A model generated the notes under the pieces. That model saw nothing but the letters and a program-made list of their open reading frames with translations, did no database searches and was not told where the DNA came from. DNA of 64,000 bases. Source: an uncultured Gammaproteobacteria bacterium. Lineage in GTDB: Bacteria; Patescibacteriota; Microgenomatia; Levybacterales; GWA1-39-11. The stretch is taken from NCBI GenBank assembly GCA_964627245.1, contig CAZVGS010000001.1, positions 89,256 through 153,255 of the forward strand, in the 5' to 3' direction. Positions within the stretch are counted from its first letter, which is position 1, and each line of letters opens with the position of its first letter. The position numbers and the translations under genes were made by a program. Positions 4,138 through 18,109 of this stretch are shown one piece after another.

Positions 4138-4809
4138 ATGGAACTCCCATACAGTGAATATGTCTGGTTCTCTCCGCGATTCGCGATGAATTACCTCACA
4201 GACTTGATGAGAAAATACACTCCTGATGTTGTACTGAGAAGCCCCAAATACAAGAAAGAAAAAGAAGCATGGATTATGGGCGTAGCACTCTTCGGGGTTA
4301 TTAAAATCACCCGTGTTAGGTGGTGGTTACAAGTGCCAACTGATGACCCACCAGACATGAAGGCTATGATGTTAACGCCAGACCATGATAAAAACCTCAA
4401 TATCATGAATTATCGTGAAGTTGAAATAATGCAAATCACCAAACATACTAACGGAACTATTGTTGAGGAGATTTTGAGAAAGTTAAAGGGTAATTCATAC
4501 CCCAAGGAATGGGCACTAGTCGTCTACTTAAACCGTGCAATGTTTATAGAAGATATGCGAAAAATATCAAACGAACTCGTTGAGGCAAAACCGAAAATCG
4601 CAGATATATGGGTAGTTGCCAGCACTACACCAAATGCGAATAAATACATACTATTTTCTCTTTTCCCAGAGGTTCAGACAGTTACATACGATATTGATGA
4701 GGAGATGAGAAATTTAGAAATTGGAGACTCTATTGACCTCATGCCATACCATAAAGGTACGACAATGACATTAATCCGCAATGTTAAACGCACAAAATTT
4801 ATTCCCTGA
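4138..4809 (+). CDS. hypothetical protein (first gene of element)
   Basis: 223-aa ORF with no antisense competitor of similar quality. No motif recognised with confidence. Confidence 0.55.
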   Translation: MELPYSEYVWFSPRFAMNYLTDLMRKYTPDVVLRSPKYKKEKEAWIMGVALFGVIKITRVRWWLQVPTDDPPDMKAMMLTPDHDKNLNIMNYREVEIMQITKHTNGTIVEEILRKLKGNSYPKEWALVVYLNRAMFIEDMRKISNELVEAKPKIADIWVVASTTPNANKYILFSLFPEVQTVTYDIDEEMRNLEIGDSIDLMPYHKGTTMTLIRNVKRTKFIP

Positions 4810-4839
4810 CCTCTGAATTAGCTACTGCAAACCTCAAAA

Positions 4840-4862
4840 AAAACTTGACTTCCTGCCCGTTA
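4840..4862 (+). promoter_or_regulatory. conserved promoter/operator-like box, copy 1 (AAAACTTGACTTCCTGCCCGTTA)
   Basis: 22 of 23 nt identical to 10587-10609. Contains the -35-like TTGACT. Lies 20 nt upstream of the RHH gene. Confidence 0.5.
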
Positions 4863-4881
4863 TCCGATTACGGTTATCAGT

Positions 4882-5037
4882 ATGAAGTCAACACGTGCGA
4901 CAATCATACTCTCTTCAGACGTTCATGAAGCCTTAAGACGAATGGCGTTTCAAAGACGGCTAAGCATCTCAAAACTGGTCCGACTTTCCCTCATTGACTT
5001 CCTTTTGAAGCATGGGGAGAAAAGACCGGAGGAATAG
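4882..5037 (+). CDS. ribbon-helix-helix (CopG/Arc-like) DNA-binding protein, 51 aa
   Basis: Found by hand because it is below the ORF-track cutoff: MKSTRATIILSSDVHEALRRMAFQRRLSISKLVRLSLIDFLLKHGEKRPEE. It shows the beta-strand/helix/helix pattern of RHH repressors and antitoxins. Confidence 0.55.
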   Translation: MKSTRATIILSSDVHEALRRMAFQRRLSISKLVRLSLIDFLLKHGEKRPEE

Positions 5038-5088
5038 TATGACAGGGGTGAGATTGTCCATCCTTGCCCCGCATACTAATGATTAGCT

Positions 5089-5208
5089 ATGAGCGCAAAA
5101 GATTTAACAATGATTATAGAAATACTGGTACAGATGGATTACATCAGGATTAAGCTCGATGAAAATCAGCGGGTACTTGAGATACTGGCCAAGAGACTGA
5201 AACGATAA
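5089..5208 (+). CDS. possible small protein, 39 aa
   Basis: Hand-translated MSAKDLTMIIEILVQMDYIRIKLDENQRVLEILAKRLKR. The stop lies 1 nt before the next start. No other support. Confidence 0.25.
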   Translation: MSAKDLTMIIEILVQMDYIRIKLDENQRVLEILAKRLKR

Positions 5209-5209
5209 T

Positions 5210-5509
5210 ATGAATTTAGAATTTAACAAAACATGCGAATTATGCAGGGATGAGTTTACCCTTACCCACAGGCCACACAGAGGCGGAACAATAGTCTCAC
5301 GGTTGTGTCCTAATTGTGAATCAATCAAACCTGAGATTGAAAAGGTAATGTACGGCAAATCCTACTCAAGCGCAACGGATGAGGATAAAGCCAGAATCTT
5401 CGAACGCGCACGGGAAAACAGAACAGTCAGACGCGGACCGTTCTTCAATCCCAAAGACAACGGAACGGGCGGAAAAGTTCAGTCAGAATACGAAAGGAGA
5501 AAAAGGTAA
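5210..5509 (+). CDS. small zinc-ribbon protein
   Basis: 99 aa with CELC…CPNC (CxxC-x23-CxxC). Confidence 0.5.
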   Translation: MNLEFNKTCELCRDEFTLTHRPHRGGTIVSRLCPNCESIKPEIEKVMYGKSYSSATDEDKARIFERARENRTVRRGPFFNPKDNGTGGKVQSEYERRKR

Positions 5510-5712
5510 TGCCGACAAGAAATAATACAGAAGGAAAGGTATTCGGTGATATTGAGGGACAGACAAACCACCCTGAGGGACTGGACATGACAAAACAGTT
5601 AAAAATGAGGGAAGGACAGCGCAGCGGATTGGTCAGAATGGGAGTACCGAAAAGCATCGTCAGAGCAAGTATCAATCAGGCTCAGTTTAAGCCTACAAGA
5701 AAGGGTAAATAA
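5509..5712 (+). CDS. hypothetical small protein
   Basis: 67 aa. Its start shares one nucleotide with the upstream TAA (TAATG coupling). Confidence 0.45.
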   Translation: MPTRNNTEGKVFGDIEGQTNHPEGLDMTKQLKMREGQRSGLVRMGVPKSIVRASINQAQFKPTRKGK

Positions 5713-5795
5713 TGATCACTTACTGTTCGGAATGCGGGTACAGACTTTTCCGGGGTAAATACCGATACTACTGTATTAACAAAGAATGCTTATGA
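5712..5795 (+). CDS. possible 27-aa zinc-ribbon mini-protein
   Basis: Hand-translated MITYCSECGYRLFRGKYRYYCINKECL (CxxC…CxxxxC). The start abuts the upstream stop. It is very short, so speculative. Confidence 0.2.
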   Translation: MITYCSECGYRLFRGKYRYYCINKECL

Positions 5796-5968
5796 TAGAT
5801 GAATTACTTGATGATATGGCAATTGAGATTGAACGGCTAATGGTAAGCGATGCGGTTAAAGCCCGCCTGAGATTACAGCTTGCAGAGCTTGCGGATAATA
5901 CCCAGGAGCTACGGCTGAAAGCACTATTTGACTGTATTCTGTTCGAGGCCAAAAAACTAAACACATGA
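5786..5968 (+). CDS. hypothetical small helical protein
   Basis: 60-aa ORF with an ATGA overlap onto the next ORF. Confidence 0.4.
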   Translation: MLMIDELLDDMAIEIERLMVSDAVKARLRLQLAELADNTQELRLKALFDCILFEAKKLNT

Positions 5969-6264
5969 AACTATACGAAAAAGCAATAAAACAACTGGAG
6001 CGGGATAAACCTAAGGTAACTATTGAGGATAACACAGCCAAGAGAATAGAAATCCTGAACAAACTGTTACAGGCAGAATACGGATTCATTGAGCAGAACA
6101 AAGATGAAGTAACGAAAGAGCTGAAAGGACGGTTCAAAGAAACCCTGATAAATGAAGTACTTGAAGAGATTAAGAATCACAGCAATACCGGTAAAACACC
6201 GTACTATGTAGGACTACAGATCGCCAGCGATACGGTACAAAAACGAAAGGGAAAACAGCAATAA
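5965..6264 (+). CDS. hypothetical protein
   Basis: 99-aa ORF, charged and helical, translationally coupled to its neighbours. Confidence 0.5.
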   Translation: MKLYEKAIKQLERDKPKVTIEDNTAKRIEILNKLLQAEYGFIEQNKDEVTKELKGRFKETLINEVLEEIKNHSNTGKTPYYVGLQIASDTVQKRKGKQQ

Positions 6265-6265
6265 T

Positions 6266-6613
6266 ATGAAACAAAATAAGACCATTTCCCCCTTAGAAGG
6301 AAATAATGAGGAAGCCGAACAGGCTACAAAAGAGATACGGTCAGGCAAGTCAGCTAGTGGAAAGAAATCTTCCCCCCCCGTTCCCCGTCCCCAACAAACA
6401 CCGTTTAAGATAAACAAACTCTCGGATATCCGCAAAGCAAGTAAGGTACTCATGACTGATTTAATCAACAAGGAGGGCAGGTTCACGGTTGCAGAAAGCA
6501 GAGTATTCAAGGACATGGCAGAGCTGTACTTTAAGGCGGAGGAGAACATTACAACCAAGAGACTAATGAATAAGCTGAAGAAAGAAAACGACACGGACAG
6601 AAAGGGGCGGTAG
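6266..6613 (+). CDS. hypothetical basic protein
   Basis: 115-aa ORF that starts 1 nt after the upstream stop. Confidence 0.5.
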   Translation: MKQNKTISPLEGNNEEAEQATKEIRSGKSASGKKSSPPVPRPQQTPFKINKLSDIRKASKVLMTDLINKEGRFTVAESRVFKDMAELYFKAEENITTKRLMNKLKKENDTDRKGR

Positions 6614-6796
6614 CGCAGGGGTATGGGTACTGAATAAACTGTACGGTATTTCAATGATGCTACACCACCCCCCACCTATACCTACACCCCGCGCGGTGGG
6701 ACACGGGTAAAGGGAGTGACATATAGAGGAAGTACTTAACGGTGTACAGAAGGTAACCCATTGAAGCGAACTCTTATAAATTTTTTGGGAGATTTT

Positions 6797-6805
6797 TGTC
6801 ATAAT
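6797..6805 (+). promoter_or_regulatory. extended -10 (TGtCATAAT) 6 nt upstream of ATG 6812
   Basis: Sequence tttTGTCATAATaactgtATG. Confidence 0.35.
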
Positions 6806-6811
6806 AACTGT

Positions 6812-7006
6812 ATGAATGATACCAACTTTCTAATTTCTCTGGCTATTGGTTTTGTTATATTTTTACTTTTTTCATTTAGTGGCCCAAAAACGCATCGCGA
6901 TCCATTCTATGGTGATATTGATAACATTTCGCATAGTATTGCTGTTGGATTGATCTGTATGGGGGCAACGTACAGTATTTTGCAAATTATTAGTAGTATG
7001 TTTTGA
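6812..7006 (+). CDS. small two-TM membrane protein
   Basis: Internal Met of ORF 6761..7006. The product is MNDTNFLISLAIGFVIFLLF…GLICMGATYSILQIISSMF with two hydrophobic helices. The start was chosen because of the -10 box placement. Confidence 0.4.
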   Translation: MNDTNFLISLAIGFVIFLLFSFSGPKTHRDPFYGDIDNISHSIAVGLICMGATYSILQIISSMF

Positions 7007-7092
7007 TGTCCCAATTTGACAAAGATTGATTAGCACGATACGGTGTATAAGCTTGGTAAAGGATACTATGGCAGTATTCTAATCTACAAAGG

Positions 7093-7117
7093 AGCATCTC
7101 TCAGGAGGTGCTTTTTT
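7093..7117 (+). terminator. intrinsic terminator
   Basis: AGCATCTC-tcag-GAGGTGCT stem (8 bp, one G-U pair) followed by TTTTTT. It lies inside the N-terminal extension of track ORF 7043..7399. Confidence 0.55.
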
Positions 7118-7126
7118 GTGTCTATT

Positions 7127-7135
7127 TGGTATAAT
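7127..7135 (+). promoter_or_regulatory. extended -10 (TGgTATAAT) 6 nt upstream of ATG 7142
   Basis: Sequence attTGGTATAATgaattaATG. Confidence 0.45.
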
Positions 7136-7141
7136 GAATTA

Positions 7142-7399
7142 ATGGATTATAAAACTGCCAGTGAGCTACTTAGAGAACTTTCTCTACTTTGGATATGGGA
7201 AGCCGGAAACTATAATAATAAAATTCCATCCAACTTGCTTACCCGGGATCTTTGTTATTATGACCAGGCGTGCGACTATTTACGACGATTTCCTAAAACA
7301 GGTGATCTTGAACGTGTGGCCCTCGCTCAAATGCAGATGAATTACATTGACGATATTGAGGGGAATAATGAAATGGAAAAATTATTTTCCATCCTCTAA
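7142..7399 (+). CDS. hypothetical protein, 85 aa
   Basis: Internal Met (MDYKTASELL…) of track ORF 7043..7399. The upstream part of that ORF contains a terminator and a promoter. Confidence 0.4.
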   Translation: MDYKTASELLRELSLLWIWEAGNYNNKIPSNLLTRDLCYYDQACDYLRRFPKTGDLERVALAQMQMNYIDDIEGNNEMEKLFSIL

Positions 7400-7525
7400 C
7401 CTTTTAATTACATCAGCTCTTCTCTTCCGTACTTCATCAAGGAGTTTCTTACGTCTTTCACGGACTTCATTGTACATGGGTTTTACTACTACTCGTGGCT
7501 TTCTAAACTTCCCGTATTCAGTCAT
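7382..7525 (-). CDS. possible 47-aa basic protein at the end of the cargo operon
   Basis: Hand-translated MTEYGKFRKPRVVVKPMYNEVRERRKKLLDEVRKRRADVIKRLEDGK. The ATG lies 3 nt after the upstream stop. No other support. Confidence 0.2.
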   Translation of the reverse strand: MTEYGKFRKPRVVVKPMYNEVRERRKKLLDEVRKRRADVIKRLEDGK

Positions 7526-7528
7526 ACG

Positions 7529-7822
7529 TTAGTACTCTCCTACGCGTTCAGCCCATTGAGGAGGTGTTCTTTCGTCCTCTTCGCTATGTAATTGAGTTTC
7601 AAATGATATTTTCGAGGCGTGTTCTATAGTGGAATCTTTACCTACTTCGCCACCTATTCCGAGTACGGTAATTCCTACTTTTCCGCCTCCCTTGTCACTC
7701 TTGGTAACTGCAATATCAAATTTAACGGAGCTTGAAACATAATTACCGCCAGTGTGAGCGTCCTTTATCTGCCTGAGGCTTTCTTGTATGAAGTCTTTTA
7801 GTTCGTTATTTTCGTCTGCCAT
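7529..7822 (-). CDS. trypco2-like (trypsin-co-occurring domain 2 / CU044_2847-like) small protein; family assignment tentative
   Basis: 97 aa. The pattern LKDFIQESLRQIKDA…VKFDIAVTKSDKGGGKVGITVLGIGGEVGKDSTIEHASKISFETQL resembles the helix plus beta-hairpin Gly-rich pattern I recall for trypco2 domains. Confidence 0.45.
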   Translation of the reverse strand: MADENNELKDFIQESLRQIKDAHTGGNYVSSSVKFDIAVTKSDKGGGKVGITVLGIGGEVGKDSTIEHASKISFETQLHSEEDERTPPQWAERVGEY

Positions 7823-7823
7823 A

Positions 7824-8291
7824 TTATACGGTTACCTTCTTTTTCTTGAACCTTCTGTATCCTAAATATCCCAATCCCCCAAGTAGTGCCATTGCCACAA
7901 CCCCACCACCTCCACTATCTTCACTCGCTCCCTGAACGGCTATGGTTGGTGTAGGCTCTTTGGGCGAGGGTGTATTCGTGGGTTCATCCGTAGGTTCAGC
8001 GGTAGGAGTAGGAGTATTGGTAACAGCACGGGTTGGTATTCTCGAGGGTGCGGTTGTGTTTATCGGTGCAAATTGTTTTACGGGTGCGGTTGTTGCAACG
8101 GGTGCACTTTCAACCCTTTTTACGCTTCCGTCTGGGTTATGGTGGTGATATTCTCCAGAGCCTAAACCCCATTCTTCGCAATTAGTACGGCATCTATGAC
8201 CACCGCTCCCGTCGGTCCCTCCAGGATGGGCTTCTATAGGGGAAACAGATATATAGAAGAGCAGGGATAAGATAAGTAAAGTTTGATACAT
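7824..8291 (-). CDS. YHYH-domain secreted protein with PT linker and C-terminal TM/basic anchor
   Basis: Signal peptide, then AHPGGTDGSGGHRCRTNCEEWGLGSGEYHHHN (YHYH-family signature), a PT-rich linker, and GGGGVVAMALLGGLGYLGYRRFKKKK at the C-terminus. Confidence 0.7.
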   Translation of the reverse strand: MYQTLLILSLLFYISVSPIEAHPGGTDGSGGHRCRTNCEEWGLGSGEYHHHNPDGSVKRVESAPVATTAPVKQFAPINTTAPSRIPTRAVTNTPTPTAEPTDEPTNTPSPKEPTPTIAVQGASEDSGGGGVVAMALLGGLGYLGYRRFKKKKVTV

Positions 8292-8310
8292 TAACCAGTA
8301 TTATACTCCT

Positions 8311-10227
8311 TTAATCGTGCCAAATGTCATTACCTCTCGCATCCATACCTAACCACTGCTGAGATTTTTCTAATTCCTCACGCCAGTACCACCCGCCGGG
8401 AACTTTTTCTTCTGTCTTTTTCTTAATAGCTGGTTTCCGTGTTGGGGTCGGAGACGGAGCTTCAGTTGTTATCGGGCTAGGGGTAACTGATGGTATTGCG
8501 TTTACCGTTGCTACCGGAGAAAGAATTTCGAGAGCACTCACTTCTTTTATCTTTGTTGCCGAATCAAATAAATAGTAAGTAGTAAATCCAGATACAGTTG
8601 CAAATACAGAGATGAAAATAATGATTTGACTTACAGTGAGATAATTAGCTCTAATGTGTGAAAATGCATAATTAATCCGTTTTGATAGGGGTGGGATTTC
8701 ACTTAACCGTCTTTTGGTATTTCTCATCTGTACAACCAAAATAAACGTTATTATGAAATTCCAAAAAATCCAGAATTGAATAGAAAAATAATCAATATCA
8801 AATAAATGAATATCCCCTGTCCTTAGCCCAATCAGAATTAGAATAGTATAGAAAGTGAAATATATGGTTACAAACCGTGTCGTTTGTGAGAAAGCATGAG
8901 AGACAGATTTGTGTTTCGCGTTAGTTGAAACCCATCCGACAGATTTTTTGAACAATGCGGTTTTTACTGCGTGGGAATACGCATAAGTTCGAGCCATGAG
9001 AATTCCAAAATACCCGAATCGAAATTTAGCGACTGGGAATAACCACAGGTAAACAATTGCAAAAATTAAGTGAGGGTAAAAGAGCAAACTCTTACCGAGA
9101 GGAATATATTCATTGTATAAGAACAGTGTCCAAAAGAGATGGAAAGAGAAGAGGATCATCAAAGGGTGATGTAAATAGAACATAAACCCGGTAATAAAGC
9201 AGAATTTGGTTTTCCACGATGTCTTACCTTTCCAGAAAAATTTTGAAAGCATTAATCGCAAACTACCCATACACCATCTATGTTGTTGGTGGAAAAAGGC
9301 GTATTGATTATCCGGGCATAATCCAATAGATAGAAGTATCGGTACAAATAGAACCCTTAAACCTACTCTTGAAATAGCGTACCCAGTATGAGCATCTTCA
9401 CTGTATTCAATCTGATAGGGTCCGCCGATTGCCTCGATTGCACTTCTCCGATACAATGCACACGAACCACAGCATATAGCCCCCCCGAATCGACTTCTCG
9501 TCACTTGAATAAATCGGTAAAATGGCTCTTCGGCAAATGCTGCGTTATATGCGAATTTTGATTTTTTATATGCATTATCTGACAAATCAAAGTATTGAGG
9601 CGTTTGAACAATTCCGACAGTTGGATCATCCATATACGGGAGCGTTTCTTTTATAAAATCGGGATGGGGTGCGAAATCAGCATCAAAGATTGCGATAAAA
9701 TGACCATTAGACCTCTCAAAAGTATGTTTCAAATTTCCAGCCTTTTTCATATGTCCCTTATTCGGCCGTTCCATATAAACGAATCCAAAGTGTTGAGCCA
9801 ATTCTTTATGCGCCTCGAAATTTTCCTTCGAATCATCCAATACGTATACGGTTTTATTTTTATAGTTAATGTTTGATACGTGTTCCCAGGTATTTCTGAG
9901 TACGTCAACTTCTTCACCACAAATAGGCAAGAAAATATCAACGGGGGGTTCTTTGTCATATGATTTTACAAGTGCAAAGTGTTTCAGCAAGTCAAATTGA
10001 CGGTAAAACAAGTTAAGGCCAAAGCTGGCAAGGTGATAAATAGAGAGTAGTATAAAAATTGGAATGACAAAAAATGAATAAAACGGGTCTATCCCTATGA
10101 CGTTCCAGTACCCAAGCATAATCAAGATCCATGAGAAAATCCCAAATCCATACAGTAATCTAACTTTCCAGGTGGGAGTTTTTTCAATATACAGGTACTT
10201 ATTAATTGTCGAGGGGTTGGGGAGCAT
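8311..10227 (-). CDS. processive family-2 glycosyltransferase (cellulose/chitin-synthase-like) with a C-terminal PT-rich tail
   Basis: 638 aa, multi-TM, with VLDDS, FDADF, QTPQYF, SEDAHTG and QQHRW (QxxRW) motifs. There is an extra C-terminal TM region, a PT linker and a GGWYWREE…tail. Confidence 0.85.
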   Translation of the reverse strand: MLPNPSTINKYLYIEKTPTWKVRLLYGFGIFSWILIMLGYWNVIGIDPFYSFFVIPIFILLSIYHLASFGLNLFYRQFDLLKHFALVKSYDKEPPVDIFLPICGEEVDVLRNTWEHVSNINYKNKTVYVLDDSKENFEAHKELAQHFGFVYMERPNKGHMKKAGNLKHTFERSNGHFIAIFDADFAPHPDFIKETLPYMDDPTVGIVQTPQYFDLSDNAYKKSKFAYNAAFAEEPFYRFIQVTRSRFGGAICCGSCALYRRSAIEAIGGPYQIEYSEDAHTGYAISRVGLRVLFVPILLSIGLCPDNQYAFFHQQHRWCMGSLRLMLSKFFWKGKTSWKTKFCFITGFMFYLHHPLMILFSFHLFWTLFLYNEYIPLGKSLLFYPHLIFAIVYLWLFPVAKFRFGYFGILMARTYAYSHAVKTALFKKSVGWVSTNAKHKSVSHAFSQTTRFVTIYFTFYTILILIGLRTGDIHLFDIDYFSIQFWIFWNFIITFILVVQMRNTKRRLSEIPPLSKRINYAFSHIRANYLTVSQIIIFISVFATVSGFTTYYLFDSATKIKEVSALEILSPVATVNAIPSVTPSPITTEAPSPTPTRKPAIKKKTEEKVPGGWYWREELEKSQQWLGMDARGNDIWHD

Positions 10228-10232
10228 ACGAA

Positions 10233-10532
10233 CTAGTTACCACCATTTCGTACACGGGACACAAAATCTCTAATTCTTTGTTGAAAGTCATTGTTATATT
10301 CTTTGAATTCTGGATTACGAACAGCTTTACAGCTTGGATAAGAAATTTGTCGATTAAATGGAAGTTCGCGTGTTACAGTCTGACAAACAATAGTTACAGG
10401 TGTATGAGGATTATCATAAATTGGCGGTGTTACTCCACCTCCACCATAAGCAGAAGCTGTTGGAACGTTAAATAAGAATACGGAGAGAATAAATGTGAGT
10501 ATAAATAACTTTTTCATCCTTAAAAGCATCAT
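10233..10532 (-). CDS. small secreted protein (first gene of cargo operon)
   Basis: 99 aa with signal peptide MKKLFILTFILSVFLFNVPTASA. Separated from the GT2 gene by 5 nt. Confidence 0.55.
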   Translation of the reverse strand: MMLLRMKKLFILTFILSVFLFNVPTASAYGGGGVTPPIYDNPHTPVTIVCQTVTRELPFNRQISYPSCKAVRNPEFKEYNNDFQQRIRDFVSRVRNGGN

Positions 10533-10586
10533 AACAGATGCATCTTATAATATCAATACCCATTTCTTACAATATTTTAATTTTTG

Positions 10587-10609
10587 AAAACTTGACTTCC
10601 TGTCCGTTA
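10587..10609 (+). promoter_or_regulatory. conserved promoter/operator-like box, copy 2 (AAAACTTGACTTCCTGTCCGTTA)
   Basis: 22 of 23 nt identical to 4840-4862. Confidence 0.5.
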
Positions 10610-10789: not shown

Positions 10790-11062
10790 ATGAAGAAAGT
10801 AAGCAGAAACAATTTATACAGAGAGATAGACAAATTATTCCTTTGGTTAATTCAGTTACCCGATACTGATGCCGATGAGGATAAGTCTTTGCGTGAAATT
10901 CAGAAACATCTTGTCAGGTTATCAAATCTGAAAAGTGAGGAATACACTCAGGAAGCTCCTGAACAGCCGGAACAACCGCAACAGCAGGAACCGCAAAAGC
11001 CGTTAACCGATATGCAACGAAAAATTATGAGCGGGGAAATCTCGATAGGAGGACAGGAATAA
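10790..11062 (+). CDS. hypothetical acidic protein
   Basis: 90-aa ORF, first of a co-directional array of 7 ORFs. Confidence 0.5.
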   Translation: MKKVSRNNLYREIDKLFLWLIQLPDTDADEDKSLREIQKHLVRLSNLKSEEYTQEAPEQPEQPQQQEPQKPLTDMQRKIMSGEISIGGQE

Positions 11063-11063
11063 A

Positions 11064-12101
11064 ATGGCTTGGGGCGAACAGGGACAGAAAATTACATGGA
11101 CACCGAACGTAGTTTCAGACGATAAGAAACAACACGGCGGATGGTATGACAATCCTTCAACGGGATATAACCAACGGTGGTACTCAGGCGGTGCAACCAG
11201 TGAAAACGGTAACTCTTCCTCTAGTGGCTTCTCAATTCCTCAACCTGATATGGAAGCAATCAATCGGGAGTATCAGCCTATTTATGAGAATTATGCCCGT
11301 GATGAGCAGTTCTTAAAAGAATCCCAGGCAAGTGAGCAGGAAATGCTTAATGACAATTTTACTCTTGCCGATACCCGACTTGATAGGAATAAAACGGAGC
11401 GCGAGTTACACAACAAGGAACAGGAAACTACACTTAATAATCAATACCGCTCAGCGTACGAGGAAGTAGTACGCGCACAGAACGCATTAACACAGCAGGG
11501 AAATGTACGATTCGGAGGCACATCTTCAGCGGGTCGGGCTATGGGAGAAATCGCACAAAGTGAATTCTTCCGACAGTCAGGAAAAATACAGAATACCCAT
11601 CTTGAGAATATAGGCAGAATTCAGTCCGATTGGAGAAAATATCTTTCTTGGCATGCGGACGAAGAGCAAAGACTGGTCCAGGAGAAAAGACACGAAACCA
11701 CAAAACTTCAAAACACGTACAAACAGATGTATGTTCAGATTGCAAATAACCGTAACATCACAAAATCAGAACAGGCACGGGCACAGCGCAACGCTCAGGA
11801 AACATACCAGGCACGTAAGGCAGACCTTGAGAACTCTATCAAACTCAGACAGATGGCAATGGATGAGTACGCCCAAAAACTCAGAATGGAACTTGATGCG
11901 CAAATTGAGTTAGCGGGTAAAACAGCCTATTCGGTATCGGATAACACGTTTGCAAGTGATACTCAGTCAGATGTTGACGGTGTAAGTTATGTTCCTTCCG
12001 AGAACGGCAGTCTTATGAATATGAATACCAGTTATGTAAATCCGTTCGCACGCGCACGATACAGCGATGATGAATTTGAGGATAATCCTTATTTCGCTTA
12101 A
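11064..12101 (+). CDS. Gln/Asn/Glu-rich coiled-coil protein, function unknown
   Basis: 345-aa ORF. The N-terminus has GGWYDNPSTGYNQRWY and the centre is long, heptad-like and charged. It starts 1 nt after the upstream stop. Confidence 0.6.
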   Translation: MAWGEQGQKITWTPNVVSDDKKQHGGWYDNPSTGYNQRWYSGGATSENGNSSSSGFSIPQPDMEAINREYQPIYENYARDEQFLKESQASEQEMLNDNFTLADTRLDRNKTERELHNKEQETTLNNQYRSAYEEVVRAQNALTQQGNVRFGGTSSAGRAMGEIAQSEFFRQSGKIQNTHLENIGRIQSDWRKYLSWHADEEQRLVQEKRHETTKLQNTYKQMYVQIANNRNITKSEQARAQRNAQETYQARKADLENSIKLRQMAMDEYAQKLRMELDAQIELAGKTAYSVSDNTFASDTQSDVDGVSYVPSENGSLMNMNTSYVNPFARARYSDDEFEDNPYFA

Positions 12102-12106
12102 TAACT

Positions 12107-15100
12107 ATGGAATTAAAATCACTGCTCAGAGACGTTTCACGCCGTTATAACGAATATAACCGTAAACAGAAAAAACCACGCATACAGCCGAGTCTTATTG
12201 AAGATGTCGGGAACCGATTCCGCTCATTCGTAAAAGAACAGTCTCAGGAAGGCCAACCGCTCCACAAAATAACCCGCACCATTCAGGAATTACCGTTAGT
12301 TACACAACGCGAAGTAGATGAGGTCGGGACCCGCTTTCGCTCTTTCGTGGATGAAAGACAAAAAAATGTTGATGATGTGGGTAAACGATTCGGGGAATTC
12401 AAAGTAAAGGCTTCTCAGTTTTCAAAGGATTATGACCCGTTCAACTTTGATGAAAAAGCCCCGATAAATCAGCTTCCCGTTCTCGGCGATATCCGCAGAA
12501 CATTACAGCCGTATACAAATCCTTATAAATTAGGTCCTATGGAACTGATGCGCAGAAATACGGAACTCATGCAAAAAGAGAGTAAAGGAATTGCATTGAC
12601 CGATGAGGAAAAGGAATTTCAGAAGTATTACATGACCGAACAGGCTTCTATGGTTATGCCGATGGGTACGGTCGGTAAAGTGGCAAAACCCGCATTAACC
12701 GCATTGCAGAAAGAAGCCGTAAAGAAATTACCTAAAATACTCTATGAATTTGATGCTAAGACCGCAAACAAGGTAATTGATGAAGCAAAAGGAGCCTCTA
12801 AAGAATGGGTTGATGAATTCAAATCATGGGTAAATACCAGAGCATCCGCACAGCTTCAGGGACTGAATCAGCGGATGAAATTCAAGGATATGGATTCTGA
12901 GGGAATTGCAGGTATTTTTAAGTTCCAGGCAGGAGACAAGACGGGACGGTTTGCCGATGTGAAGAAATTTTTTGATTCCCGCTATTCAGAACTTCAGAAA
13001 GCAGGAGTTGAATTCAGATATAAACAGGAGTATCTACCGCAACTATGGCTTAATTCAAAAGAAGAGGTTGAGGAACGGCTCGGACGAACTCTTACTTCCC
13101 GTCCTTCCTTCTCTCTTCGATCAGTAATTGAGAATTATCAGAAAGGAATAGCTAACGGACTAAAACCGCGCTTTCAGACATTATCGGAACTTATCGGATG
13201 GTATGAGGCAAAAACGGCCAAAGTTATAGCGGATCAGAATTTTTACAACTACATGAAGAAGGCAAAGTATATTCTTCCTGAGGATACGGCTCCTGCATGG
13301 TGGAAAACGATAGATTCCGAGAAGTTTCCGAAGTTCACGGTTAAAGTAGGTTCGGAGGTTAAGAATCTGAACTATAAAGCTGAGGGAAGAATTGCGGATG
13401 CTATTAACAATTATCTTAATGACCCTGAAGGAGCATTACCAGCTTTTGCTGACTTTGCCACGAAGGTTAAGAATCTGGGATTATCGGCAGGCGTACCCCA
13501 TACTTCAATTAACTTTCACGGCTATAACATCTTCGTCCGTTCGGTCCTGGCAAGTAATAACCCCGTATCTTCTATTTTCAGAACAGGCCAATGGATGCTT
13601 AAACCCAAAATTGCGGAACGGTTTGTTATGAATAACCTTGAGGATGCGCAGTATTTTGTTAAAAACGGCATGACCATGAGTACCGAGGATTACGGACTGT
13701 TCGAGGCGGTTGAGAAGGTTAAAAAAAGCGGTGTAATTAATAAGACATTAGATAAATATGAGGAATGGTTCGGGGACCCTCTGTTTAAGAAATCCCTTCC
13801 CGCAATCAAAATTCAGTATACCCGCGCATTGTTTGATGATTTACTCAAAACATTGCCTGAAGAGGAAGCGGTAAAGATAGCCGTAAAAAGCGCAAATGAT
13901 GTATTCGGGGGAATTAATTTGAATGAACTGATGCGCAACAAACAAACACAAAATGTACTCCGTTCCGTTCTGCTCGCGCCAGACTGGGCTGAGTCTACAA
14001 TCAGAATGGGTAAAGGAATTGTTAAAGGAGTTGCCAACCCGTTAAGCCCCGAGTACAAAGCATACCGTACTTTTGCCAAAAACATGGTATTCGGGTATAT
14101 CACGGCCAACGTTGTGAATAAAGCTCTGTCAGGTCACTGGATGTTTGAAAATGAAGGTAACAATAAATTCAATATTGATACCGGTACATATACGGGAGAC
14201 GGTAAGAAACGGTACTTCAGAATCTGGGGTACGGCCGTTGATTTTGCCAGACTTCCTGTTGATATCGTTAACGGTCTCTCAAAAGGCGATCCGTCAGCAT
14301 TTGTCAGAACCTTCACTAACCGCTTATCCATGCCTGTAGGTTCAGCAGGACATTTACTATTCAATAAAGATTATCTCGGACGGCCCGTATACGGAAAAGA
14401 CCAATGGGGAAATGAAATCGACCCTATACAGTCAGCAGGAGGCATAACAAATGAAGTATTACGCGGTGTCGGAACTCCTACTCAGGTAATGGCGGGTATT
14501 GATTTACTTACAGGGCGTTCAAATCCCGAACAGGCTCTTGCTCAGTCACTTGAACTTCCGATGCGATATCAGGGAGGAGCAAGCTCGGACACACAGAAAA
14601 GAAGAAATGCAGCGTTTCAGTCTCTCGGCTTTGAAGGCGAAGCATTAGCCCGCGAAATGGAGAGAACAAAGGGTATGAGATATTCGGGAAGTCAGGGAGA
14701 AGAAAAGTCACTGCTTGACCATATCGGAGAAAAGTTCATGAGCGTATTCGGTAAGAAAGAACCTAACAGACCTCAGCCGAATGACCCGCTTACAAAGGCT
14801 TTTCTTGCGGATATCGAAAAGGATGAGAATGCTACCCGTGTAAGAGAAGTATTCAAATTAGGTTTAAGCAAGGAACAGACAGAACAGTTACTTGAAAAGG
14901 AAGGATTAGGTACGTATGAAGAAGCTGAATTGATAATTATGAAAGCTCTCGGTGTTGAGAACGGAACTCGTGGAAATTACATTCAGGAGATTACAAAGGG
15001 AATGGATGATGAAAGTAAAGAGGCCACTCTTTCCTATCTGGCCGAGAACGAAATTCTGACTACCTCAGTTATATCCCAATGGGTTGATGACGGGGAAATA

Positions 15101-15391
15101 ACAGACGAGGAAGCCGATTATCTGAAGGACCTGATTAAAAAAAGTAAAGGAACGTACAAAGGTCCGAAGGCAAAAGGCGGTAAGAAAGCGGGCGCAAAGA
15201 AAGTAACGGCAGGAAGTATCCCGACAATTAAGATTCCTACTTTTGCGGGCGGTACGGTTAAGAGTGTCAGCAAGGCATATTACAAACCGATACCAAAGAT
15301 TACCTATGAAAGACCTACGCCTACTTCAAAACAAAAAGTATCAGCTCCGAAGCCTGAGACTAATTTTAAATCATACGGAGGGAACAACTAA
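12107..15391 (+). CDS. large (1094 aa) protein of unknown function with N-terminal triple repeat and basic C-terminal tail
   Basis: Longest ORF of the element. It has three copies of (D/E)(D/E)VG(N/T/K)RF(R/G)(S/E)F in the first ~100 aa and a Lys-rich C-terminus (KAKGGKKAGAKK…). I found no Walker A or other catalytic motif. Confidence 0.75.
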   Translation: MELKSLLRDVSRRYNEYNRKQKKPRIQPSLIEDVGNRFRSFVKEQSQEGQPLHKITRTIQELPLVTQREVDEVGTRFRSFVDERQKNVDDVGKRFGEFKVKASQFSKDYDPFNFDEKAPINQLPVLGDIRRTLQPYTNPYKLGPMELMRRNTELMQKESKGIALTDEEKEFQKYYMTEQASMVMPMGTVGKVAKPALTALQKEAVKKLPKILYEFDAKTANKVIDEAKGASKEWVDEFKSWVNTRASAQLQGLNQRMKFKDMDSEGIAGIFKFQAGDKTGRFADVKKFFDSRYSELQKAGVEFRYKQEYLPQLWLNSKEEVEERLGRTLTSRPSFSLRSVIENYQKGIANGLKPRFQTLSELIGWYEAKTAKVIADQNFYNYMKKAKYILPEDTAPAWWKTIDSEKFPKFTVKVGSEVKNLNYKAEGRIADAINNYLNDPEGALPAFADFATKVKNLGLSAGVPHTSINFHGYNIFVRSVLASNNPVSSIFRTGQWMLKPKIAERFVMNNLEDAQYFVKNGMTMSTEDYGLFEAVEKVKKSGVINKTLDKYEEWFGDPLFKKSLPAIKIQYTRALFDDLLKTLPEEEAVKIAVKSANDVFGGINLNELMRNKQTQNVLRSVLLAPDWAESTIRMGKGIVKGVANPLSPEYKAYRTFAKNMVFGYITANVVNKALSGHWMFENEGNNKFNIDTGTYTGDGKKRYFRIWGTAVDFARLPVDIVNGLSKGDPSAFVRTFTNRLSMPVGSAGHLLFNKDYLGRPVYGKDQWGNEIDPIQSAGGITNEVLRGVGTPTQVMAGIDLLTGRSNPEQALAQSLELPMRYQGGASSDTQKRRNAAFQSLGFEGEALAREMERTKGMRYSGSQGEEKSLLDHIGEKFMSVFGKKEPNRPQPNDPLTKAFLADIEKDENATRVREVFKLGLSKEQTEQLLEKEGLGTYEEAELIIMKALGVENGTRGNYIQEITKGMDDESKEATLSYLAENEILTTSVISQWVDDGEITDEEADYLKDLIKKSKGTYKGPKAKGGKKAGAKKVTAGSIPTIKIPTFAGGTVKSVSKAYYKPIPKITYERPTPTSKQKVSAPKPETNFKSYGGNN

Positions 15392-15393
15392 TT

Positions 15394-15579
15394 ATGAATA
15401 AAAAGTGTCTTACATGCGGGACGGAATTACAGAAACGAAAACATGAAAGCCGGGCAAGATTTGAAAAAAAGCAGTTCTGTACGGCCGAACATGCCAGGAC
15501 ACATATGAAGGAAACAGGGCGTGGCTGGTGGAATCCGGAATTTGATAGAGGAAAACTCAGAGCAAAGGGGGTGAATTAA
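15394..15579 (+). CDS. small zinc-binding protein
   Basis: 61 aa with CLTC…CTAEH. Confidence 0.5.
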   Translation: MNKKCLTCGTELQKRKHESRARFEKKQFCTAEHARTHMKETGRGWWNPEFDRGKLRAKGVN

Positions 15580-15581
15580 AT

Positions 15582-15776
15582 ATGAACAAAGACCAATTAA
15601 GAGATGAAATGCAACAGGTAGCTTATGACACTATTCGGGGCGTTTCAGGACAACAGGTAAACGAGATTGATTACAAGAACGCGCTTGTATCAAAAACTCA
15701 GGAAGTCGTTGACGGAGCATATCAGCTCGGTTATAACGCGGGCTTTGAGGCGGGCAAAAACGCGCCACAAGGTTAA
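15582..15776 (+). CDS. hypothetical small protein
   Basis: 64-aa ORF, tightly packed against its neighbours. Confidence 0.5.
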   Translation: MNKDQLRDEMQQVAYDTIRGVSGQQVNEIDYKNALVSKTQEVVDGAYQLGYNAGFEAGKNAPQG

Positions 15777-15808
15777 GAAATATTAAAAATGAAAGGAGGT
15801 GTAAAAAT

Positions 15809-16201
15809 ATGATTCGCAGAGATAAAACAAATTACGATCCTAACAAGGATAAATACAACTGGACGAACGACATGTACCGACAGGATGAGCTTTCTAACAG
15901 GGATTTAGAAGAACAGAAAGCGATAATCAATAACTGGCAGGCTATGAGTGAAAGTAAAAATGAAGCTGAAAAAGCCGAATGGGAACTGAACAGAAGAATT
16001 GCAGCGGTTACCGAAACGGATAATGCAGACATCAGACAGAAAGAGGCAATTAAGAGATACAAAATAGCCCAAAAATATGACGAGATAATCCGTAGCAAAA
16101 TGACAAGAGGCCAGACAGAGGAAGAATTTGAAGAAGAACGTCATGAATACGGAGCATTGCATCGCAGGGCTTTAAAAGAGGCTATGCGGTCAATTGAATA
16201 A
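15809..16201 (+). CDS. hypothetical charged helical protein
   Basis: 130-aa ORF preceded by a strong SD (aaaggaggtgtaaaaatATG). Confidence 0.55.
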   Translation: MIRRDKTNYDPNKDKYNWTNDMYRQDELSNRDLEEQKAIINNWQAMSESKNEAEKAEWELNRRIAAVTETDNADIRQKEAIKRYKIAQKYDEIIRSKMTRGQTEEEFEEERHEYGALHRRALKEAMRSIE

Positions 16202-16963: not shown

Positions 16964-16992
16964 TTGACAAGTCACTTCCAGCATGATACAAA
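16964..16992 (+). promoter_or_regulatory. sigma70-like promoter (TTGACA-17-TACAAA)
   Basis: Sequence agcTTGACAagtcacttccagcatgaTACAAA inside the 780-nt ORF-free region. Confidence 0.4.
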
Positions 16993-16999
16993 TAATATG

Positions 17000-17110: not shown

Positions 17111-17150
17111 ATTGGCTTACTACTAGCCCTATTAGTAGTGCACATACGGT

Positions 17151-17608: not shown

Positions 17609-17689
17609 GAGCTGAGAGTTTGTGAGTTTTGCCTGGAGTGGTCCCGGATCACTTCAGACAAAGAACATAAGAGAAGGAGGTGTATTAAT

Positions 17690-18106: not shown

Positions 18107-18109
18107 GCG

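What the first reader, a model, noticed from the sequence alone, without database searches (positions are those of the whole stretch)
7382..10532. Opposite-strand cargo operon: secreted peptide, processive GT2 synthase, YHYH protein, trypco2-like protein
The plus-strand element genes are interrupted by a minus-strand operon with gaps of 1-19 nt. It encodes a 99-aa secreted protein and a 638-aa cellulose/chitin-synthase-like GT2 (DD, DAD, QTPQYF, SEDAHTG, QQHRW). The GT2 has an unusual extra C-terminal TM segment, a Pro/Thr linker and a GGWYWREE tail. The operon also encodes a YHYH-domain protein with a PT linker and C-terminal anchor, a trypco2-like protein, and possibly a 47-aa basic peptide. 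PT linkers and C-terminal anchors match the host secreted proteins at 971-3948, so the cargo looks host-adapted. A mobile element that supplies an exopolysaccharide synthase could remodel the cell surface for superinfection exclusion, attachment to a host cell, or biofilm formation, in the manner of lysogenic conversion.
Basis: partly seen in the sequence, partly recalled or inferred. Interest (0 to 1): 0.65.

Follow-up and report, generated by a model that had tools for sequence, protein, structure and literature searches.

The report
Mobile polysaccharide-synthase cassette on integrated element
A roughly 16-kb integrated mobile element in what is probably a Patescibacteria (CPR) genome carries, on the opposite strand, a cellulose-synthase-like enzyme and a small secreted partner protein; this same gene pair also turns up on a phage and a plasmid-like contig, so it looks like a portable kit for changing the cell surface, though its product and purpose are untested.

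Summary
Five tightly packed minus-strand ORFs (7382-10532) interrupt the plus-strand genes of an element that ends in a large serine integrase abutting tRNA-Lys.

The 638-aa protein is a BcsA-type processive family-2 glycosyltransferase. All catalytic motifs are intact and it has no PilZ domain. It carries an extra C-terminal membrane helix, a Pro/Thr linker and a conserved 30-aa Trp-rich tail found in 4 of the 120 closest homologs.

Only the first two genes form a conserved unit. A ~95-aa secreted protein (signal peptide, invariant A|YGGGG, two Cys) sits directly upstream of every close GT2 homolog examined.

The cassette looks like acquired cargo:
- Its GC3 is host-like (0.35), against 0.41 for the element backbone.
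- It has its own promoter-like site.
- It is absent from three related ~16.5-kb viral contigs.
- Close copies lie on a plasmid-like contig, next to another serine recombinase, in a phage contig with terminase and capsid genes, and in chromosomal contexts.

The YHYH call passes marginally. The Trypco2 call holds only at family level. The 47-aa ORF has no support.

The polysaccharide made and its biological role (exclusion, attachment) remain inference. Mobile-element-borne synthases of this kind are already known, so this is a new variant of a known kind and of moderate interest.

The parts
10233..10532 (-). Small secreted partner protein. The ORF is 99 aa; the likely start is M6 at 10517, giving 94 aa. 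It has a signal peptide, an invariant A|YGGGG cleavage-site motif, two invariant Cys and a C-terminal amphipathic helix.
   Evidence: The protein lies directly upstream of every GT2 homolog of >=52% identity examined. It has no Pfam, NCBIfam or PHROG hit.
8311..10227 (-). 638-aa BcsA-like processive family-2 glycosyltransferase. It has no PilZ domain. It carries an extra membrane helix (~527-553), a Pro/Thr linker and a conserved tail, GGWYWxxxLxxxQxWxGxDxxGxDxW.
7824..8291 (-). 155-aa surface-anchored protein. It consists of a signal peptide, a short His-rich YHYH-type motif (HPGGTDGSGGH...EYHHH), a ~75-aa Pro/Thr stalk, a C-terminal membrane helix and a Lys-rich end.
   Evidence: NF033223 scores 30.5 bits against a cutoff of 30. 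No relatives were found in the related loci.
7529..7822 (-). 97-aa cytoplasmic protein belonging to a divergent Trypco2/Pepco-like family.
   Evidence: Homologs are stand-alone genes in chromosomal contexts. No protease gene is adjacent.
7382..7525 (-). 47-aa basic ORF with unsupported coding status.
   Evidence: No homolog was found. It overlaps the convergent plus-strand ORF ending at 7399.
10528..10556 (-). Promoter-like site, TTGATA-17-TATGAT with a TG extension, matching 10 of 12 consensus positions. It would drive the minus-strand block as a near-leaderless transcript.
   Evidence: This is a consensus match only; the count of such matches in the region equals the chance expectation.
10587..10609 (+). 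23-nt motif AAAACTTGACTTCCTGTCCGTTA. It matches 4840-4862 at 22 of 23 positions. It is a probable operator or promoter element of the mobile element.
   Evidence: By my own estimate about 2e-4 such pairs are expected by chance in 21 kb.
4840..4862 (+). Second copy of the 23-nt motif, lying upstream of a 51-aa ribbon-helix-helix-like gene (4882-5037).
4138..7399 (+). Left block of the mobile element. It consists of small plus-strand genes with backbone-type GC3.
10790..20233 (+). Right block of the mobile element. It holds the 345-aa (11064-12101) and 1094-aa (12107-15391) gene pair shared with viral contigs, an HTH_36/DnaD-like replication initiator (17690-18106) and a large serine integrase (18557-20233).
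20207..20279 (-). tRNA-Lys(CTT), the probable integration target. The last ~26 nt of the integrase ORF lie inside its 3' part.

Best explanation
A two-gene synthase cassette is carried as accessory cargo by a ~16-kb integrative element (about 4.0-20.2 kb of the window). The element inserted next to tRNA-Lys in a genome that is probably Patescibacteria/CPR.

The 638-aa enzyme is a membrane-embedded processive GT2 of the BcsA type. It would polymerise a UDP-sugar on the cytoplasmic face and push the growing chain out through its own membrane channel. The product is most likely a beta-glucan, but its identity is not established. Without a PilZ domain the enzyme is not gated by c-di-GMP.

One extra membrane helix places the Pro/Thr linker and the Trp-rich 30-aa tail outside the cell. 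At that position many paralogs carry a peptidoglycan-binding domain. The tail is therefore inferred to hold the enzyme or its product at the wall.

The tightly coupled ~70-aa mature secreted protein is inferred to be an extracytoplasmic subunit of the synthase.

The YHYH surface protein, the Trypco2-like protein and the 47-aa ORF are additional passengers with no demonstrated link to the synthase.

Expressed from its own promoter in the integrated state, the cassette would change the host's surface glycan. This would work in the manner of lysogenic conversion or plasmid-borne exopolysaccharide genes.

Shown: the gene content, the intact motifs, the fold, the accessory status and the recurrence on mobile elements.
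Inferred: the product, the topology of the tail, the role of the partner, expression and benefit.
For: Synthase:
- BcsA structures match at E~1e-33 by sequence.
- In the Foldseek search BcsA structures are the best matches, at 4e-24 to 4e-18, ahead of plant CesA and Chlorella virus hyaluronan synthase.
- The AlphaFold2 core (residues 1-510) mostly has pLDDT above 90.
- The D, DxD, ED and QxxRW motifs are invariant in 26 homologs.
- A KAGN motif aligns with the same motif in BcsA.

Tail outside the cell:
- A Lys/Arg-rich loop precedes the extra helix.
- About 20 of 120 homologs carry PG_binding_1 at this position.

Partner protein:
- It lies directly upstream, 0-7 nt away or overlapping, in 14 distinct loci plus the window.
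- The family is narrow, with 36 representative hits among 1.84 billion proteins.

Mobile element:
- It has a serine integrase next to a tRNA.
- Backbone GC3 is 0.41 against 0.33 for the host (p=3.7e-5).
- The 1094-aa protein is 48-50% identical to proteins on IMG/VR contigs. Those contigs also carry a prim-pol, a helicase, TerL-like genes and a serine integrase.
- Shared 23-nt and 24-nt intergenic motifs lie at 4840/10587 and 10681/17192.

Cargo status:
- The cassette is absent from relatives. In L009 only two small ORFs lie between the integrase and the 395-aa gene.
- Operon GC3 is 0.35. This differs from the backbone (p=0.006) and not from the host (p=0.91).
- It has its own promoter-like site.

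Recurrence on mobile elements:
- L092 is plasmid-like, with Rep3, ParA, Replic_Relax, a resolvase and a primase; its GT2 is 73% identical.
- L006 has a serine recombinase and a diversity-generating retroelement.
- L100 is a phage contig. It carries a DnaD-like gene, a methyltransferase, a TerL (2e-28) and a major head protein, and the cassette lies between the replication and packaging modules.
- Chromosomal copies exist as well, in L003/L004 and L094. They intermix with the mobile copies in a neighbour-joining tree.
Against: - No att sites or empty site were found, so the left boundary (3949-4137) is inferred from composition only.
- The window element has no detectable capsid, terminase or primase genes. 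It shares only two genes plus the integrase type with the viral contigs, so it may be defective or not viral.
- Host-like GC3 is equally what trapped host DNA would show.
- The promoter match is a consensus hit in a region where such hits occur at the chance rate.
- The neighbour-joining tree has no support values.
- TIGR03030 scores 175 bits against a cutoff of 699, so the product need not be cellulose.
- The tail and the partner protein have no detectable relatives of known function.
- There is no expression data.
Confidence: 0.62

Rival explanations
1. The block is resident host DNA, not cargo. It would be a chromosomal synthase locus now bracketed by two independent or nested insertions, or by a decayed genomic island. 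On this view the element does not move the synthase.
For: - Operon GC3 cannot be told apart from host GC3 (p=0.91).
- The block is on the opposite strand from the element genes.
- Equally close homologs sit in plainly chromosomal contexts: L003/L004 between an M48 peptidase and GatCAB/DnaE, and L094 near PriA, def and fmt.
- The left block (4138-7399) has no relatives in the viral contigs.
- No att sites were found.
Against: - Both flanks have the same non-host GC3.
- Both flanks share a 22-of-23-nt intergenic motif at 4840 and 10587.
- There is only one integrase and one tRNA junction.
- Cassettes at 48-73% GT2 identity lie inside a phage contig, a plasmid-like contig and beside another serine recombinase. 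Mobilisation of this pair is therefore directly observed elsewhere.
Confidence: 0.13
2. The cassette is cargo, but its product is not a free exopolysaccharide. It would be a wall-integrated glycan needed for envelope construction, as with the Streptomyces CslA tip glucan. Alternatively it could be a chitin- or PNAG-like polymer. On this view the element carries a spare housekeeping wall-synthesis module rather than a conversion factor.
For: - Paralogs carry a peptidoglycan-binding domain at the extracellular C-terminus.
- SP-YGGGG partners in L015 and L018 also carry sequence that looks PG-binding-like by eye (no domain search was run on them).
- CslA with GlxA makes cellulose at the cell wall in another monoderm (PMC11022532).
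- NodC and PgaC models also match, though weakly (2e-19 and 3e-10).
Against: - The best sequence and fold matches are all to glucan synthases.
- No GlxA-like, deacetylase or hydrolase partner is present in the operon.
- Nothing here distinguishes a bound polymer from a free one.
Confidence: 0.15
3. The block is primarily a defence or addiction module. The Trypco2/Pepco-like protein would be a latent pore-forming toxin, the 47-aa basic peptide its partner, and the synthase incidental.
For: - 8 of 11 family members hit Trypco2.
- Pepco/Trypco proteins are protease-activated pore-forming defence effectors (bioRxiv 10.1101/2025.11.14.688446).
- Mobile elements often carry defence genes.
Against: - No protease or sensor gene is adjacent.
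- PADLOC finds nothing for any operon protein.
- Homologs are stand-alone next to housekeeping genes.
- The window protein itself is below the Pfam cutoff.
- The 47-aa ORF has no homologs.
Confidence: 0.05

Closest known systems
Bacterial cellulose synthase catalytic subunit BcsA (PDB 4HG6, 4P00, 9B8V)
   Same: It has the same GT-A catalytic domain with the D, DxD, (T/S)ED and QxxRW motifs plus KAGN. It has the same arrangement of membrane helices forming a polymer channel. BcsA is the best sequence and fold match.
   Different: Identity is only about 20% in the structural alignment. TIGR03030 scores 175 bits against a cutoff of 699. There are two N-terminal membrane helices in the model, where BcsA has four by recollection. 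There is no PilZ domain and no BcsB partner. A ~95-aa secreted partner, an extra C-terminal helix and an extracellular tail are present instead.
Virus-encoded processive GT2 synthases: Chlorella virus hyaluronan synthase (PDB 7SP6 and others) and the 'putative cellulose synthase' of Synechococcus phage S-CBWM1
   Same: These are mobile or viral genomes carrying a membrane-integrated processive GT2 that would coat the infected cell. Both are detected as relatives: Foldseek ~1e-13 and tblastn 2e-37 at 27% identity. GT2 'cellulose synthase' genes are also listed among viral auxiliary genes in virome surveys (PMC12285232).
   Different: Those are lytic large viruses of an alga and a cyanobacterium, and they carry single genes. 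Here the carrier is a small integrative element in a probable CPR bacterium. The cargo is a conserved two-gene cassette that is also found on plasmid-like and chromosomal DNA.
Lysogenic conversion by temperate-phage glycan-modification genes (for example GtrABC O-antigen glucosylation); recalled from general knowledge, not tested here
   Same: These are accessory genes with their own promoter on an integrated element. They are expressed in the lysogen and change the surface carbohydrate, and they are often on the opposite strand to the phage genes.
   Different: Gtr enzymes decorate an existing O-antigen through a lipid carrier. This cassette would make a whole polymer by the synthase-dependent route in a bacterium that, if it is CPR, is generally considered to lack an outer membrane (general knowledge, not tested here).
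Streptomyces CslA-GlxA cellulose synthase complex (PMC11022532)
   Same: It is a PilZ-less BcsA-like synthase in a monoderm that needs an extracytoplasmic partner and deposits glucan at the wall. After CPR, Actinomycetota hold the next-closest relatives, at 36-41% identity.
   Different: No GlxA-like copper oxidase is present here. The one actinobacterial relative checked (L056) is followed by a GH26-like hydrolase, not GlxA. Orthology to CslA is therefore not shown.
Plasmid-borne bcs, curdlan or NodC-type synthases of rhizobia and others (PLSDB)
   Same: BcsA-like GT2 genes on mobile replicons are common: 729 plasmid records match.
   Different: All are at or below 35% identity. They lie on large replicons within multi-gene operons, and none has the YGGGG partner or the tail.

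Membership tests
Processive membrane-integrated GT2 synthases (BcsA/CesA/HAS/CHS type) | GT-A domain with the D, DxD, (T/S)ED and Q(Q/R)xRW motifs | tested here: met
   D131, D182xD184, E277-D278 and Q314QHRW318 are present and invariant in 26 homologs. Pfam GT2 families score 1e-20.
Processive membrane-integrated GT2 synthases (BcsA/CesA/HAS/CHS type) | Membrane helices after the catalytic domain form a translocation channel with interface helices and a gating loop | tested here: met
   The AlphaFold2 model has helices at 338-360, 363-377, 380-396, 405-425, 444-470 and 478-509, with a loop at 426-443 containing WVSTNAK; most of this stretch has block-mean pLDDT of ~90 or more, lower (70-87) around 371-380 and 421-440. 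Foldseek probability is 1.00 to BcsA, CesA8 and HAS.
BcsA proper (UDP-forming cellulose synthase, TIGR03030 / NF008558) | Score at or above the curated equivalog cutoff | tested here: not met
   TIGR03030 scores 175.4 bits against 699.1, and NF008558 scores 131 against 992.
BcsA proper (UDP-forming cellulose synthase, TIGR03030 / NF008558) | C-terminal PilZ domain (c-di-GMP gating) and an adjacent BcsB subunit | tested here: not met
   No PilZ or BcsB family was hit in any operon protein. The C-terminus is instead a helix, a linker and a 30-aa tail.
BcsA proper (UDP-forming cellulose synthase, TIGR03030 / NF008558) | The product is beta-1,4-glucan | not testable with these tools
   This needs enzymology or polymer analysis.
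YHYH domain proteins (NCBIfam NF033223; Pfam PF14240) | Match to the curated model above its cutoff | tested here: inconclusive
   NF033223 scores 30.5 bits against a cutoff of 30, with an 8-residue insertion. Pfam YHYH gives no hit even at E<=10.
Trypco2 / Pepco (PF19631) | Match to the Pfam model above the gathering score | tested here: inconclusive
   The window protein scores 16.9 bits against 24.2. 8 of 11 family members match at E<=0.01, best 2.6e-7.
Trypco2 / Pepco (PF19631) | Encoded next to a trypsin-like or caspase-like protease, usually fused to a sensor | tested here: not met
   There is no protease in the operon or flanks. There is none beside the homologs in L096-L099. PADLOC finds nothing.
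Integrated temperate phage (prophage) | Integrase at one end, abutting a tRNA target | tested here: met
   The large serine recombinase at 18557-20233 scores 2.6e-31 against phrog_95. Its 3' end overlaps tRNA-Lys at 20207-20279.
Integrated temperate phage (prophage) | Capsid, portal, terminase or tail genes | tested here: not met
   There are no PHROG or Pfam structural or packaging hits in 4138-20233. Relatives L002/L007/L009 have TerL-like ORFs that the window element lacks.
Accessory cargo ('moron') of a mobile element | Absent from related elements, distinct composition, own promoter, and separable from backbone transcription | tested here: met
   The block is absent from L002, L007 and L009. 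GC3 is 0.35 against 0.41 for the backbone (p=0.006). It is on the opposite strand and has a promoter-like site at 10556-10528 (weak evidence).

The most novel reading that the evidence does not exclude
The secreted YGGGG protein plus the PilZ-less BcsA-like enzyme would be a previously unrecognised minimal synthase-dependent polysaccharide system of monoderm CPR bacteria. It would circulate as a two-gene cassette on phages, plasmid-like replicons and integrative elements. The invariant mature N-terminus (Tyr followed by a Gly run) and the Trp-rich extracellular tail would be the parts that receive or anchor the nascent chain. Mobile elements would use the system to re-coat the tiny host cell, either to block superinfection or to alter attachment to the organism the CPR cell lives on.
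Probability: 0.25. Interest if true: 0.65.

Novelty: new variant of a known kind. Interest (0 to 1): 0.45.

Why it matters
CPR/Patescibacteria are ultra-small bacteria, many of them episymbiotic, whose biology depends on their surface, and almost nothing is known about what their mobile elements carry. This locus gives a concrete case: a compact, transferable polysaccharide-synthase cassette with an unannotated obligate partner and an unannotated extracellular module. It is seen on four kinds of genetic background.

If the cassette is functional, it would be a simple two-protein system for studying synthase-dependent secretion without c-di-GMP control. It would also be a candidate mechanism by which phages and plasmids alter attachment or phage susceptibility in CPR.

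The general principle is not new. Mobile and viral GT2 synthases and lysogenic conversion of surface glycans are already known, which limits the surprise.

Tried and rejected
- Searched for att direct or inverted repeats and for a tRNA-Lys fragment at the left end. Nothing exceeded shuffled controls. This is expected for a serine integrase, so the boundaries stay inferred.
- Foldseek of the small-protein model against the PDB gave no match at E<=0.001.
- Pfam at E<=10 on the 37-aa tail and on the GGWY-containing N-terminus of the 345-aa protein gave nothing.
- A profile search with the four tails against 5.8 billion proteins gave nothing, because the query is too short.
- PADLOC on the operon and its neighbours gave nothing relevant.
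- An Rfam scan of the whole window found only four tRNAs and no riboswitch upstream of the operon.
- PDB sequence searches with the 1094-aa and YHYH proteins gave nothing.
- I tested whether the actinobacterial relatives are the CslA-GlxA locus. In L056 the downstream gene is GH26-like, not GlxA, so I do not claim CslA orthology.
- Viral-contig scans with the GT2 alone, the integrase and the 223-aa left-end protein found no relatives. The small-protein alignment was too variable to scan with.
- An exact look-up of the window's own GT2 contig found nothing on record. The window's genome is not among the GTDB representatives searched. The taxon is therefore inferred from the homologs' names only.
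- I considered that the 47-aa ORF is real and that it pairs with the Trypco2-like gene. There is no conservation to support this.

Full report
OBSERVATION

The gaps are 3, 1, 19 and 5 nt. They sit between plus-strand ORFs at 4138-7399 and 10790-20233. A sigma-70-like site, TTGATA-17-TATGAT with a TG extension, lies at 10556-10528 on the minus strand. Its -10 box overlaps the first ATG of the 99-aa ORF, and homologs align from residue 6. The real start is therefore probably M6 at 10517, on a near-leaderless transcript. This promoter call is only a consensus match, and the region holds no more such matches than shuffled sequence does.

THE ENZYME

The 638-aa protein hits four Pfam GT2 families at 1e-20 to 3e-13. 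By sequence it matches the solved bacterial cellulose synthases BcsA (4HG6, 4P00, 5EJ1, 7LBY) at E~1e-33.

CCGS at 252-255 and a KAGN motif align with the BcsA equivalents. These residues are invariant in an alignment of 26 homologs.

An AlphaFold2 model built on that alignment has mean pLDDT 82.7, and most of residues 1-510 is above 90. In the Foldseek search of that model BcsA structures are the best matches (4e-24 to 4e-18), followed by plant CesA8 and Chlorella virus hyaluronan synthase at about 1e-13. The protein is therefore a membrane-embedded processive GT2.

It is not a BcsA equivalog. TIGR03030 scores 175 bits against a cutoff of 699. There is no PilZ domain, and no BcsB is encoded nearby. 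The polymer it makes is not established. A beta-glucan is the best guess from the ranking of matches.

THE C-TERMINAL EXTENSION

After the last core helix (478-509) comes a Lys/Arg-rich loop, a further hydrophobic helix (~527-553), a Pro/Thr-rich stretch, and the sequence GGWYWREELEKSQQWLGMDARGNDIWHD. By the positive-inside rule the extra helix puts the rest outside the cell.

Among the 120 best homologs, 88 stop at or below 570 aa, soon after the core. About 20 carry a peptidoglycan-binding domain (PF01471) after an equivalent extra helix. Six are fused to large multi-helix domains. Only four (the window protein, P0002, P0003 and P0011) carry this tail. In those four, 13 positions are invariant: GGWYW, L, Q, W, G, D, G, D, W.

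The tail is thus a real, conserved and rare module. Pfam did not recognise it, and a profile search with it found nothing. Its modelled confidence is low. It does not resemble PilZ, BcsB or a known carbohydrate-binding module. Its position, where paralogs carry a wall-binding domain, suggests a wall- or glycan-binding role. That is inference.

THE PARTNER PROTEIN

The 99-aa ORF has no Pfam, NCBIfam or PHROG hit. A profile built from it finds a homolog directly upstream of the GT2 in every locus whose GT2 is at least 52% identical to the window's and that has enough upstream sequence. This covers 14 distinct loci, with the stop overlapping or 0-7 nt from the GT2 start in those checked.

A full scan of 1.84 billion representative proteins returned 36 hits, nearly all 85-109 aa long. 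An alignment of 26 members shows a signal peptide, an invariant Ala-Tyr at the predicted cleavage site followed by a Gly run (A|YGGGG), two invariant Cys, and a C-terminal amphipathic helix. The AlphaFold2 model (pLDDT 79) gives a disordered Gly/Pro N-terminus, a confident beta-hairpin (41-67) and two short helices. It has no structural match in the PDB.

More distant GT2 loci carry longer proteins that begin with the same signal-peptide-YGGGG head. Two of these have a C-terminal part that looks peptidoglycan-binding-like by eye; no domain search was run on them. The strict adjacency across very different genomic backgrounds is good evidence for a functional pair. What the partner does is unknown.

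THE OTHER THREE ORFS

The 155-aa protein. It has a signal peptide and then HPGGTDGSGGH...EYHHH. This passes NCBIfam's short YHYH model by half a bit (30.5 against 30) and is missed by Pfam. A ~75-aa Pro/Thr stalk, a C-terminal membrane helix and a Lys-rich end follow. Iyer and colleagues predicted YHYH domains to be metal-dependent hydrolases associated with phage tails (PMC7824862). No relative of this protein occurs in any fetched locus.

The 97-aa protein. It is below the Pfam cutoff for Trypco2 (16.9 against 24.2 bits). It has only 10 detectable relatives, but 8 of the 11 family members match Trypco2, best E=2.6e-7, so the family assignment is reasonable. Trypco/Pepco proteins were recently reported to be protease-activated pore-forming defence effectors (bioRxiv 10.1101/2025.11.14.688446). 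Here, however, there is no protease, PADLOC finds nothing, and the homologs are stand-alone genes beside GreA or FtsZ.

The 47-aa ORF. It has no homolog.

These three are therefore not conserved companions of the synthase. The 'operon' is a conserved pair plus passengers.

THE ELEMENT

The 558-aa protein at 18557-20233 is a large serine recombinase. It has the Resolvase, Recombinase and Zn-ribbon domains and matches phrog_95 integrase at 2.6e-31. Its last ~26 nt lie inside tRNA-Lys(CTT) at 20207-20279. An HTH_36/DnaD-like replication initiator lies at 17690-18106.

The 1094-aa protein (12107-15391) is 48-50% identical to 1260-1312-aa proteins on an IMG/VR contig and two metagenome contigs (L002=L008, L007, L009). 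The preceding 345-aa protein is 26-27% identical to their 395-aa neighbour. Those contigs have all genes on one strand. They carry a prim-pol, a helicase, a TerL-like gene split in two and a serine integrase. L002 and L009 are circular permutations of one ~16.5-kb map.

The window element lacks the primase and terminase genes. I could not identify any virion gene, so I call it an integrative element related to viral contigs, not a proven prophage.

No att repeats were found, as expected for a serine integrase. The left end is placed at about 3949-4137 for two reasons. The three secreted-protein genes at 971-3948 have host-like GC3 (0.36), and the plus-strand genes from 4138 onward do not.

CARGO STATUS

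Four lines of evidence bear on this.

1. Composition. Per-gene GC3 has a median of 0.41 for the 17 backbone genes on both sides and 0.33 for 32 host genes (Mann-Whitney p=3.7e-5). The five operon ORFs have a median of 0.35. This differs from the backbone (p=0.006) and not from the host (p=0.91).

2. Shared intergenic motifs. A 23-nt motif occurs at 4840-4862 and 10587-10609 with one mismatch. A 24-nt motif occurs at 10681-10704 and 17192-17215 with two mismatches. By my estimate about 2e-4 and 2e-3 such pairs are expected by chance. These motifs tie the left and right plus-strand blocks into one element that encloses the minus-strand block.

3. Absence from relatives. In L009 only ~1.4 kb with two small ORFs separates the integrase from the 395-aa gene. 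L007 likewise has no GT2 upstream of that gene.

4. Recurrence on other mobile DNA.
- L092/L093 (GT2 73% identical) is plasmid-like, with Rep3, ParA, Replic_Relax, a resolvase and a DnaG-type primase.
- L006 (69%) has the pair between an HTH gene with a diversity-generating retroelement on one side and a 403-aa serine recombinase on the other.
- L095 (68%) is next to another retroelement.
- L090 (67%) follows an HNH gene.
- The IMG/VR contig L100 (48%) has a 98-aa signal-peptide-YGGGGGG protein plus the GT2 sitting between a DnaD-like gene and a methyltransferase on one side and TerL (2e-28) and a major head protein on the other.

Equally close copies are plainly chromosomal, in L003/L004 and L094. 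In a neighbour-joining tree of 60 homologs, the mobile and chromosomal copies intermix within one clade (no support values). The simplest reading is a host-lineage cassette that has been picked up repeatedly by mobile elements.

The main rival is that the block is trapped host DNA between two insertions. It is not excluded, because no empty site or excision junction could be examined. I give it about 0.13.

TAXON AND KNOWN PRECEDENTS

Named homologs are all Patescibacteria: Paceibacteria, Uhrbacteria, Zambryskibacteria, Gottesmanbacteria, Kaiserbacteria and Taylorbacteria. The next-closest group is Actinomycetota at 36-41% identity. The window's own genome was not in the reference set and carries no name, so its CPR identity is inferred.

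In 50,697 phage records only Synechococcus phage S-CBWM1 carries a BcsA-like gene, at 27% identity. By contrast 729 plasmid records do, all at or below 35% identity. GT2 'cellulose synthase' appears in lists of viral auxiliary genes (PMC12285232). Chloroviruses are known to encode hyaluronan synthase, and their structures appear among the fold matches.

A survey of Patescibacteria phages notes surface-modification genes and lectin-like auxiliary genes but not this synthase (PMC12911398). I found no paper that links CPR, cellulose synthase and mobile elements.

VERDICT

It overstates the unity of the five genes, and its functional claims are untested.

This is a new variant of a known kind: surface-polysaccharide genes carried by mobile elements. 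Three points are of real interest:
- the unannotated obligate partner family;
- the rare extracellular tail;
- the cassette's presence on phage, plasmid-like, integrative and chromosomal DNA in a poorly understood bacterial radiation.

Interest is 0.45.

Noticed in passing
window 20320-20682 (-): A 120-aa GIY-YIG domain ORF (Pfam 2e-12) is wedged between tRNA-Lys(CTT) and tRNA-Arg(TCG), and its start overlaps the tRNA-Arg gene. It may be a homing-endonuclease-like insertion beside the integration site.
   Followed up: no
window 4840-4862 and 10587-10609; 10681-10704 and 17192-17215: Two pairs of near-identical 23-24-nt intergenic motifs lie on the plus strand of the element. The first pair contains TTGACT and precedes a 51-aa ribbon-helix-helix-like gene (4882-5037). 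They are probably operator or promoter elements. One lies only ~30 nt from the minus-strand operon's promoter-like site.
   Followed up: partly
L002=L008, L007, L009 (IMG/VR and metagenome contigs): These contigs form a family of ~16.5-kb single-strand-coded genomes. Each has a prim-pol, a helicase, a TerL-like gene split into 265-aa and 209-aa ORFs, a serine integrase, and a 395-aa plus ~1300-aa gene pair of unknown function. Gene orders are circular permutations of each other. No capsid gene was recognised, so they may be satellites or an unclassified small virus group.
   Followed up: partly
L006 421-1827 and L095 8497-9900: Diversity-generating retroelement genes (bAvd plus a reverse transcriptase) lie within a few kb of the GT2 cassette on two otherwise unrelated contigs. 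Whether any cassette-linked gene is a target was not examined.
   Followed up: no
L015 9466-9996, L018 9243-9761, L012 2013-2570: Longer proteins (172-185 aa) next to more distant GT2 homologs start with the same signal peptide and A|QYGGGG head as the small partner. In two of them the C-terminal part looks peptidoglycan-binding-like by eye (no domain search was run). The YGGGG head may be the functional core.
   Followed up: partly
window 11064-12101 (+), N-terminus: The element's 345-aa protein begins ...KKQHGGWYDNPSTGYNQRWYSGG, which faintly echoes the GGWYW tail of the synthase. Pfam gives no hit, and this could be chance.
   Followed up: partly
window 971-3948 (-): Three genes encode secreted or anchored Cys-rich and Pro/Thr-rich proteins of 492, 311 and 186 aa with no family hits. 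Overall GC is 0.45 because of the Pro/Thr codons, but GC3 is host-like at 0.36. They lie immediately outside the inferred left end of the element.
   Followed up: partly
L056 11443-12414 (Streptomyces naphthomycinicus): The actinobacterial relative of this GT2 is followed by a GH26-like glycoside hydrolase (E=1e-26 to Endoglucanase H chains in the PDB), not by GlxA. This suggests an uncharacterised synthase-hydrolase pair distinct from CslA-GlxA.
   Followed up: partly
window 18557-20233 / 20207-20279: The last eight or so codons and the stop codon of the integrase ORF are encoded by the 3' part of tRNA-Lys on the opposite strand. The integrase C-terminus would therefore differ between the integrated and excised forms.
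   Followed up: no
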